Source: the human T2T-CHM13v2.0 reference genome, Homo sapiens. Taken from it: a DNA stretch of 64,000 nt. Both the position numbers and the translations under genes were made by a program. Positions 36,601 to 39,988 of the stretch are shown one piece after another. The DNA lies in assembly GCF_009914755.1 (NCBI RefSeq), contig NC_060942.1; one strand, 5' to 3'. How positions within the stretch are numbered: position 1 is the first letter of the stretch; each line of letters opens with the position of its first letter. The notes beneath the pieces were generated by a model. It saw only the letters and a program-made list of their open reading frames with translations. It ran no database searches and was not told the origin of the DNA.

Positions 36601-37308
36601 ACACTGAGATCGCCCCCGAGCTGCAGTGGGCAGCCCAGGAGTGCCAAGCCACAATCTACAGCCAGCACTCAAGGGGGAGAGGAACCCATACTTTCAGAGT
36701 ACTGGGAAGGAACAGGGCTGCAAGTGTGGTTCAACATAGAGGAGCCACACAAACGAGCAAGAGTTTACCAACTGACCAATATTCCTAAGCGCCACCTACT
36801 GGATCACACCCTAGAACCTCAACACCAAAAGTACCTTGCTAACATACTCCCATCTGAAACCAAAGACAAGAAGTCAGCTTCAAATCAAGACCCGAATAAA
36901 GTGTCAGTTCTGTGAAAACATCCAGAAAAGAAGTCTATTGACTGTACTGAGTCTGCACTGAAGTTAAAGGAACACCCACATGCAGAGATGAGAAAGAACC
37001 AACGCGAGAACTCTGGTAACTCAAATGGCCAGAGTGCCATACGTCCTCCTAAGGACCACAACAGTTCTCCAAGAAGAGTTCTTAACCAGACAGAGCTGGC
37101 TGACATGATAGAAATAGAATTCAGACTATGGGCAGGAATGAGGACCGTTGAGATTCAGGAAGATGGCAATACCTAATGCAAGGAAACCGAGAATCACAAT
37201 AGAATAATACAGGAGCTGAAGGATGAAATAGCCACCATAGGAAAAAAAAACACCACCACCACTAAGAGGCCTGACGGAGTTGAGTAACACAATACAAGAA
37301 TTTCACAA
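33652..37308 (+). repeat. Right arm of large inverted repeat
   Basis: Reverse complement of 28602-32252. Confidence 0.97.
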
Positions 37309-39988
37309 TGCAATTGCAAGTATTAACAGGAGAATAAATCTAGCTGAGAAAAGAATTTCAGAGCTTGAAGACTGGCTCTCTGAAATGAGACAGTCAGACA
37401 AAAAATTATAAAAACAACCAAAAGACATGAACAAAACCTCTGAAAAGTATGGGACTATATAAAGAGGCCAAGTCTATTTATCATTGGCATCCCTGAAAGG
37501 GACAGAGAGAAAGCCAACAACTTGGAAAACCTATTTCAGTATATTGTCTATGACAACTTCCCCAAACTTGCTAGAGAATCAAACAAATTCAGGAAATACA
37601 GAGAACTCCTGCAAGATTTTACACACGAATACCATCCCCAAGACATATAATCATCAGATTTTCCAAGGTCCAAATGAAAGAAAGAATGTTAAAGGCAGCA
37701 AGAGGGAAAGGGCAGGTCACCTACAAAGGGAACCCCATCAGGCTAACAGTAGACATCTTAGCTGAAACCCTGCAAGCCAGAAGAGATTGGGGGCCTATAT
37801 TTGACATTCTTAAAGAAAAAAATCCTTTAACCAAGAATTTCATATCCAGCCAAAGTAAACTTCCTCAGTGAAGGAGAAATAAGATCCTATTCAGACAAGC
37901 AAAAGTTGAGGGAGTTTGTTATCACCAGACCTGCCTTACAAGAGATCTTGAAAGGAGCACTAAATATAGAAAGACCACCACCAGCTAGTACAAAAATGCA
38001 CTTAAATACACAGACCACTGACACTATAAAGCAAGCCAGCATAACAGTTGGCTAACAACACAACATCAGAATCAAATCCACAAATATCAACACTAACTTT
38101 ATATGTAAATGGGTGAAATACCCTTCACTAAAAAGGCACCGTGTGGCAAGGTGCATATAAAACAAGAACCAATCATATGCTGTCTTCAAGAAACGTGTCT
38201 AACACATAATGACACCCATAGGCTCAAAATAAAGGGATGGAGGAAAATCTACCAAGCAAATGGAAAACAGAAAAAAGCAGGGCTTGCGATCCTAATTTCA
38301 GACAAAACAGATTTCAAACCAACAAAGATCAAAAAAGACAAAGAAGGGCATTAAATAATGGTAAAGTGTTGAATTCAACAAGAAGACCTAACTATTCTGA
38401 ATATGTATGCATCCAGCACATGAGCACCCAGGTTCATAAAGCGAGTTCTTAGAGATCTACAAAGAGACATAGACTCCCTCAAAATAATAGTGGGAGACTT
38501 TAACGCTCCATTGACGTTAGATCACTGAGGGAGAAAATTAACAAAGGTATATGGGACCTGAAGTCAACACTGGACCAAGTGGGTCTGATAGACCTCTACG
38601 TAATTCTGTCCCTGAAAACAACAGAATATGCATTCTCTCATCACCACATGCCACATGCTCTGAAATCAACCCCATAATTGGATATAAAACAATCCTTAGC
38701 TAATGAAAAGAACTGAAATCATACTAAACATACTCTTGAACCACAACACAATAAAAATTAGTGTTAGAAAGATATCAAATTAACGACCTAACATCACAAT
38801 TGAAATAATTAGAGAAGCAAGAATAAATCAACCTCACAGCTCGCAGAAGACAAGAAATAACCAACGTCAGAGCTTAACTGAAGAAGGAAATTGAGACTCA
38901 GAAAATTATCCAAAAGTTCAACAAATCCAGGGGTTGATTTTTTGAAAAATTTAATAAGATAGATAGACCACTAGCTAGACTAATAGAGAAGAGAGACAAT
39001 CCAAATAAACACCATTAGAAATGATGAAGGCAATGTGACCACTGATCCCACAGAAATACAAGTAACATGAGTAACTACTAAAAATGCTTCTATGCACACA
39101 AACTAGAAAACCTTCTTAGAAGAGATAGGTAAATTTTTCTACACATACACCCTCCCAAGACTGAATCAAGAAGTAATTGAATGTTTTAACAGACCAATGA
39201 TGAGCTCCAAAGTTGAATAGGAATAAATAAGCTACCAAAAAAAAAAAAAGGCCCAGGACCCGATGGATTCACAGCCAGATTCGACCAGATGCACAAAAAA
39301 GAGCTGATACCATTTCTGCTGAAATGCTTCCAAAAAAAAAAAAAAAAAAAAAAACTGAGGAGGAGGGACTCCTCCCAAACACATTCTATGAGGCCAGCAT
39401 TCTCCTGATACCGAAACCTGCAGAAACACAACCAGAAAATAAAGCTTCAGGCTGTTATCCTTGATTAACTTCAATGCATAAATCCTCAACAAAATCCTTG
39501 AAAACTGAATCCATTAGCATATCAAAAAGCTAATCCACCACGATCAAGTAGGCTTCATCCCTGGGATGCAAAGTTGGTTTAACCTATGCAAATCAATAAA
39601 TGTGATTAATCACATAAACAGAACCAAAGACAAAAACCACAATTATCTCAATATTTGCAGAAAAGTCTTTCTACAAAATTCCACACCCTTCATGTTAAAA
39701 ACTCTCAATGAACTGATGTTGAAGGAACATGTCTTGAAATAATAAGAGCTATTCATGACAAATCTGCAGCCAAGATCATACTGAATGGGCAAAAGCTGGG
39801 GGCATTCCCCTCAAAAACCAGCACAAGACAAGGATACCCTCTCTCACCACTCATATTCAACACAGTATTGGAAGCCCTCACCAGAGCAATCAAACAAATA
39901 AATAAAGGGCATCCAAACAGGAAGAGAGGAAGCCAAACTATCCCTGTTTGCAAGACAGCATTATTCTATCTTTAGAAAACCCCATAGT

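What the first reader, a model, noticed from the sequence alone, without database searches (positions are those of the whole stretch)
36988..38139. CpG step at the arm boundary and mismatches piled at the arm tips point to GC-biased gene conversion
Seen: within the same old L1, I count 6 CpGs in the 321 bp of ORF1 inside the arm (36988-37308) but only 1 in the ~830 bp just outside (37309-38139). At the inner tip, four mismatches fall within ~30 bp at three CpG sites that decayed differently in each arm (ggt/ggc at 32223, gcg/gtg at 32232, tgcca/cacca at 32248). Another mismatch sits at the outer tip (28610). Established: gene conversion is GC-biased and is inefficient at the ends of homology. 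Inference: the palindrome is older than its interior identity suggests, and conversion keeps restoring CpGs in a dead retrotransposon promoter.
Basis: partly seen in the sequence, partly recalled or inferred. Interest (0 to 1): 0.75.

Follow-up and report, generated by a model that had tools for sequence, protein, structure and literature searches.

The report
Old self-homogenising repeat, known human inversion
Two mirror-image 3.65-kb copies of a broken LINE-1 front end flank a 1.4-kb piece that matches a catalogued human inversion; their mismatched tips suggest the copies are likely far older than their 99.8% identity and are likely kept alike by gene conversion with a mild GC bias, but the extra CpGs are not confined to the copies, so this is an ordinary example of a known process.

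Summary
The counts hold: 6 CpGs in 36988-37308, 1 in 37309-38139, four CpG-site mismatches in the inner 31 bp and one at 28610. The palindrome (arms 28602-32252 and 33652-37308) matches polymorphic inversion HsInv0036 by size and place (CHM13 = O2).

Age is supported. Tip CpG sites differ at 3 of 4, interior ones at 2 of 69 (p=6e-4), with derived changes on both arms. CHM13 is also a recombinant arrangement of the L1.

The CpG story is weaker. The outer window stops 1 bp before a run of 7 CpGs. Ancestral CpG density already drops there (44 vs 11 per kb). Only 1-2 of the 6 CpGs sit at ancestral sites, so most are new, not restored. Arms keep 21 of 104 ancestral CpGs (copies 6%), but the single-copy spacer keeps 13 of 80. 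Non-CpG substitutions are GC-shifted in the arms at about 2 sigma.

Verdict: old inverted duplication, likely homogenised by conversion, likely mildly GC-biased. CpG retention is a feature of the whole 5' region. Known mechanism, catalogued locus.

The parts
28602..32252 (-). Left arm: inverted copy of old L1 5'UTR plus first 321 bp of ORF1, with two Alus
33652..37308 (+). Right arm, continuous with the rest of ORF1/ORF2 of the old L1
32253..33651 (.). Spacer (1,399 bp): Alu 3' end plus L1 5'UTR monomers; the segment that inverts (matches HsInv0036, 1,407 bp in hg38). Native continuation of the left arm
32222..32252 (+). Inner tip of the left arm with 4 CpG-site mismatches to 33652-33682; two derived changes on each arm
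32012..32312 (+). Full Alu spanning the inner arm boundary
33652..33893 (-). Same Alu truncated at the inner junction; 3-bp microhomology to an L1 monomer at 33651/33652
28601..28602 (.). Outer junction: young L1PA 5' end cut about 40 bp short, no target-site duplication, blunt join to ORF1 copy; tip mismatch at 28610
22197..28601 (-). Young L1PA (2.2% non-CpG divergence from 10 close relatives over 27000-28601); likely upper bound on palindrome age
36988..37308 (+). ORF1 start inside the arm: 6 CpG (1-2 ancestral); 17 weak-to-strong vs 6 strong-to-weak changes (expected about 7 vs 10)
37309..39892 (+). Single-copy ORF1/ORF2 of the same L1, outside control: 15 CpG, 2 of 40 ancestral CpG kept
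30063..30350 (-). Second Alu, wholly inside the arm (mirror about 35560-35840); keeps 4 of 22 Alu CpG sites, not elevated
30722..30755 (.). Head-to-head junction of L1 monomers inside the arm; a related one lies at about 33301-33336 in the spacer. Not spanned by any of 55 other L1 loci searched

Best explanation
The palindrome is a 3.65-kb inverted duplicate of the 5' end of a broken old L1, likely made by two template switches after the neighbouring L1PA inserted, and likely homogenised since by arm-to-arm gene conversion with a mild GC bias that would fail at the last 10-30 bp of homology. Shown: the arms, the junctions, the tip mismatches, and that in CHM13 neither arm has both of its native flanks. 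Taken from print: a segment of this size and place is polymorphic for orientation (HsInv0036). Inferred: crossover between arms flipped the spacer, making O2 derived and hg38's O1 the arrangement with the intact L1; an age of several to about 25 My; conversion as the homogeniser; GC bias as the cause of the substitution shift and of new CpGs in the ORF1 part. The high retention of old CpGs is attributed mainly to something acting on the whole 5'UTR region including the spacer, most likely low germline methylation (untested), and not to conversion.
For: Tips: 3 of 4 CpG sites differ vs 2 of 69 interior. Two derived changes lie on each arm, polarised with 30 other Alus. Tip survival of 4 of 8 CpG lineages (decay 0.69, 95% CI 0.17-1.85) equals that of the flanking L1PA group (mean 30.8 of 63 kept, 0.72); the interior value is about 0.015. 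Arrangement: L034 aligns collinearly across left arm and spacer (31402-33248) and L037 continues across the Alu, while 27 copies run from the right arm into ORF1/ORF2. Inversion: HsInv0036, IR 3,648 bp, O1 frequency 0.22, CHM13 O2 (PMC13629690 Tables S1, S3). GC shift at non-CpG sites: arm 65 W>S: 80 S>W (expected 38.9: 106.5), outside 94: 104 (61.7: 93.8), z=2.2. Arm GC* 0.485 is above all 45 copies with enough coverage (max 0.44). The spacer shows no shift (log odds 0.09+-0.23 vs arm 0.47+-0.19 and 0.86+-0.22). The arm-minus-non-arm effect of 0.39+-0.19 fits the 0.19-0.55 expected from a simple model. Lower S>W as the main effect is the pattern reported for Y palindrome P6 (PMC3723533 passages).
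Against: The age rests on four mutations in one haplotype. The GC shift is about 2 sigma and falls to z=1.8 with private changes only; 1 of 29 copies (L014) matches the contrast with no palindrome seen in its 5-kb locus. The outside part of this L1 is itself GC-shifted (p=0.016). W>S rates do not differ between arm and outside (p=0.31). New CpGs are elevated inside (18 vs 7.6) and outside (13 vs 6.4) alike. Neither arm Alu shows clearly raised CpG retention (4 of 22; 7 of 23 and 8 of 19). Ancestral states come from a majority of 80%-identical paralogues, not orthologues. The outer junction could be a later deletion, which would void the upper age bound.
Confidence: 0.68

Rival explanations
1. 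One reading: GC-biased conversion specifically restores and preserves CpGs in the arms and produces a step at 37308.
For: Arm keeps 21 of 104 ancestral CpGs vs 2 of 40 outside (p=0.024), higher than any of 50 copies (max 16%). Six ORF1 CpGs vs at most 3 in 27 copies.
Against: The spacer keeps 13 of 80, the same as arm monomers at 17 of 93. Total arrest of decay since the L1PA inserted would give only about 12%, and 70% bias about 8% (observed exceeds 12% at p=0.011). ORF1 CpGs are mostly new. The window edge inflates the step.
Confidence: 0.22
2. Old conversion-maintained palindrome with no real GC bias: the CpG excess is local germline hypomethylation and the non-CpG shift is sampling noise plus regional variation.
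For: Spacer retention equals arm retention. The shift is only z=1.8-2.2 and the outside is also shifted. Several partitions were tried.
Against: The arm-versus-spacer difference at non-CpG sites cannot come from methylation. The arm exceeds all 45 copies when all substitutions are counted, and the direction matches known palindromes.
Confidence: 0.3
3. The duplication is young (under 1 My, as 0.11% interior divergence would imply) and tip mismatches come from error-prone synthesis at the junction or from 30 bp copied from another Alu.
For: Interior identity is near allelic level and junctions look replicative.
Against: Derived changes sit on both tips, two each, all CpG transitions. The tips share three states (G at 32233, seen in 3 of 29 other Alus; kept CpG at 32240; T at 32246, 7 of 28) that none of the 30 other Alus combine (2 do not cover the whole stretch), with no non-CpG difference.
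Confidence: 0.1

Closest known systems
HsInv0036 (InvFEST; PMC13629690 Tables S1, S3, S4 rows seen)
   Same: chr18, IR 3,648 bp of TE type, inner segment 1,407 bp, total span 8,703 bp vs 8,707 here; CHM13 listed as O2
   Different: The rows seen give position, genotypes and a 755-bp deletion variant, nothing on age, tips or substitution bias. Identity was judged by size and place, with no liftover.
GC-biased conversion in X palindromes (PMC8981503) and Y palindrome P6 (PMC3723533); passages read
   Same: Arms above 99% identity, reduced S>W in arms, inversion by crossover
   Different: Those are large sex-chromosome palindromes tested with ape orthologues. This is a 3.65-kb autosomal, repeat-only arm tested here with paralogues only, with a weaker signal.
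Edge divergence of converting duplicates (PMC2588116, Drosophila; passages read)
   Same: Mismatches gather at the edges while the middle stays alike
   Different: Here the edge zone is only about 10-30 bp and is bounded by sharp junctions.
NAHR inversions between inverted repeats (PMC6748972, PMC3961182; passages read)
   Same: Small inversion flanked by near-identical IRs; most such inversions recur and many are polymorphic in apes
   Different: Recurrence and ape state of this locus were not found in what could be searched.

Membership tests
IR-mediated (NAHR) polymorphic inversion | Near-identical inverted repeats flanking a spacer | tested here: met
   9 substitutions and 2 indels in 3,651 bp, spacer 1,399 bp
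IR-mediated (NAHR) polymorphic inversion | Both orientations segregate in humans | not testable with these tools
   Taken from PMC13629690 Table S3 for HsInv0036; locus matched by size and place
IR-mediated (NAHR) polymorphic inversion | Sequence trace of exchange between arms | tested here: met
   Native continuity is split between arms: left arm plus spacer, right arm plus ORF1/ORF2
Conversion-maintained palindrome | Arm identity higher than age allows | tested here: met
   Tip vs interior CpG divergence p=6e-4; four events, one haplotype
Conversion-maintained palindrome | Arms cluster by species, not by arm | not testable with these tools
   No ape genomes held (no relatives)
GC-biased conversion in palindromes | W>S excess or S>W deficit in arms vs spacer and flank at non-CpG sites | tested here: inconclusive
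   Right direction, z=1.8-2.2, 1 of 29 copies as extreme
GC-biased conversion in palindromes | CpG retention specific to arms | tested here: not met
   Spacer 13 of 80 vs arm monomers 17 of 93, p=0.84
CpG island / active L1 promoter | CpG observed/expected above 0.6 (recalled criterion) | tested here: not met
   0.26 in arms, 0.23 in spacer

The most novel reading that the evidence does not exclude
A 3.65-kb, gene-free, autosomal inverted repeat has been kept by arm-to-arm conversion for up to about 20 My. The conversion reaches within 10-30 bp of the junctions and is GC-biased strongly enough to create new CpGs in dead L1 sequence and lift CpG content several-fold. Small TE-derived inversion repeats would then be a genome-wide set of gBGC test sites, each with its own repeat family as ancestral control and its tips as a clock.
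Probability: 0.25. Interest if true: 0.5.

Novelty: new member of a known kind. Interest (0 to 1): 0.3.

Why it matters
It extends to a small autosomal inversion repeat what is established for large sex-chromosome palindromes. It also shows that interior identity would under-date such repeats by tenfold or more, while the tips keep the clock. The locus and the mechanism are both known and no gene or function is touched: it lies downstream of the ANKRD62 coding exons, within the annotated gene span. The value is as a tidy test case.

Tried and rejected
Natural inverted 5' end of this L1 family: rejected; no other locus spans the head-to-head junctions or holds a monomer inversion. Spacer as relic of a longer arm: 33489-33654 is 88% like 32595-32754 but equally like 32946-33068, so sister monomers suffice; not fully excluded, and it would weaken the spacer control. 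L1PA inserted at the arm end with a target-site duplication: no duplication or host-L1 continuation found. Alu CpG retention as support: not elevated. Young L1PA as a sign of local hypomethylation: 37 of 63 vs 24-42 in 10 relatives, not significant. Literature: 'HsInv0036' has 0 main-text hits; none in the supplements searched of PMC13504282 or PMC6748972 (files 13-18 not searched); no coordinate hit in PMC10150506 supplements. The 2022 Cell inversion-recurrence paper was not held, Lerga-Jaso et al. 2026 was not found, and bioRxiv supplements are closed; these may hold recurrence and ape data. A six-term search for gBGC in autosomal TE inversion repeats listed 2 papers; one was checked by passage and does not treat it, the other (songbird genome) was seen only as a listing.

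Full report
Observation. The window holds an inverted repeat with arms 28602-32252 and 33652-37308 and a 1,399-bp spacer. Global alignment gives 9 substitutions and 2 indels: one at the outer tip (28610), four in the interior (29566, 30300, 30757, 31372) and four in the inner 31 bp (32223, 32232, 32248, 32249). The CpG counts of 6 and 1 are right, and a stop-ridden L1 ORF1 begins at 36988. The outer window ends one base before a CpG at 38140, and 38140-38758 holds seven.

Identity. Supplementary Tables S1 and S3 of PMC13629690 (rows and part 1 of the table seen, plus main-text passages) list HsInv0036 at hg38 chr18:12,141,452-12,150,154: repeats of 3,648 bp, inner segment 1,407 bp, type TEs, polymorphic, hg38 = O1, CHM13 = O2, O1 frequency 0.22. 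Sizes and place match. I had no liftover.

Anatomy. A search of the window's genome gave loci of an old L1 group about 80% identical to this element (best 40 candidates scored per search, so these are the closest copies, not a random sample). The right arm runs on into ORF1/ORF2 as in those copies. The left arm runs through a full Alu into the spacer as in L034 and L037. The right arm's Alu is cut at 33652 and joined to an L1 monomer over a 3-bp microhomology. The left arm's outer end is joined bluntly to a young L1PA that lacks its first 40 bp or so, its target-site duplication and the rest of the L1 it had inserted into. So in CHM13 neither arm has both native flanks; flipping the spacer would give one intact L1 and one pure copy bounded by two junctions. 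Inference: one deletion plus inverted duplication by two template switches, then at least one crossover between arms, with O2 derived. The L1PA is 2.2% diverged at non-CpG sites from ten close relatives and has a 5'UTR of about 1,025 nt. L1PA4-6 and 15-25 My are recalled labels, not call results.

Age from the tips. With 30 other Alus as reference, all four inner-tip differences are CpG transitions, two derived on each arm. Three of 4 tip CpG sites differ against 2 of 69 interior ones (p=6e-4; boundary post hoc). The tips share three states that no other Alu in the set combines, so they are the same Alu. Four of 8 CpG lineages decayed (0.69; CI 0.17-1.85), like the L1PA group (0.72), against about 0.015 inside. 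The interior is therefore at least about ten times younger than the tip, which requires homogenisation. Edge divergence under conversion is described in PMC2588116 (passages).

The CpG step. In 27 copies (one of an identical pair dropped), ancestral CpG sites number 14 in the 321 bp and 9 in the 831 bp, so the ancestor had a fourfold drop. Only 37003 is clearly ancestral; 37042 and 37275 are ambiguous; 37005, 37146 and 37188 are gains from CA or TA. In this piece W>S: S>W is 17: 6 against about 7: 10 expected (p=0.002, post hoc).

Whole arm. Over alignable parts (Alus and a poorly covered stretch left out), the arm keeps 21 of 104 ancestral CpGs against 5.9% in copies and 2 of 40 outside; the best of 50 copies keeps 16%. 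But the single-copy spacer keeps 13 of 80, matched arm monomers 17 of 93 (p=0.84; monomer-level alignments). A simple model caps retention at 12% if decay had stopped entirely when the L1PA arrived, and gives 8% at 70% bias (back-mutation not included; against 16% the excess is not significant, p=0.15). Retention therefore tracks the 5' region, not the arms. Low germline methylation is my inference and is untested. CpG o/e is 0.26 in the arms and 0.23 in the spacer. The arm Alus and the L1PA show no clear excess.

Non-CpG substitutions. Arm 65 W>S: 80 S>W (expected 38.9: 106.5); outside 94: 104 (61.7: 93.8). S>W is lower in the arm (p=0.004), W>S is not different (p=0.31); z=2.2, or 1.8 with private changes only; 1 of 29 copies shows as large a contrast. 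The spacer is unshifted (0.09+-0.23). Arm minus non-arm is 0.39+-0.19, within the 0.19-0.55 modelled. Hallast et al. report arm:spacer ratios of 1.25 (W>S) and 0.45 (S>W) for P6 (PMC3723533 passages), and Jackson et al. about 70% bias in X palindromes (PMC8981503 passages). The direction agrees; the strength here is suggestive only.

Comparison and verdict. It works like a conversion-maintained palindrome and an NAHR inversion (PMC3961182 and PMC6748972 passages). Membership of the inversion class is well supported, old age is likely, GC bias is probable but unproven, and arm-specific CpG restoration failed its test. I found no treatment of this locus's age or substitution bias in the searches made, but key sources were not available. 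New member of a known kind; interest 0.3.

Noticed in passing
L002 and L003 (G000:C10:88.15-88.35 Mb), L005 (C10:80.62 Mb): Two copies of the same old L1 are identical over the aligned stretch and inverted about 194 kb apart. Against paralogue L005 (40 differences in 3,861 bp) the L002 lineage shows 10 W>S: 3 S>W and L005 6: 9, a possible second case of GC bias.
   Followed up: partly
window 29523-31186 and 31187-33651: The old L1's 5' end is a tandem pair of units about 70-82% alike, each with a head-to-head monomer junction not found in the other loci; it looks like a 5' inversion at insertion, later duplicated.
   Followed up: partly
window 21513-22871: Two L1PA 3' ends in tandem (693 bp, 94%): the longer element sits at a T-run/AA site inside an earlier L1PA whose remainder is missing.
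   Followed up: partly
window 38759-38762: About 220 bp present in most subfamily copies is missing from ORF2 here.
   Followed up: no
window 37309-39890: The single-copy part of the old L1 also has more W>S changes and new CpGs than sister copies (94 vs 62; 13 vs 6.4), so the region may have a raised GC drift of its own.
   Followed up: partly
window 30417-30462 and 35442-35493: A 5-bp-unit repeat inside the arms differs by one unit between arms.
   Followed up: no
HsInv0036, breakpoint 1: Table S4 of PMC13629690 lists a deletion of about 755 bp in one arm of O2 haplotypes in two samples.
   Followed up: no
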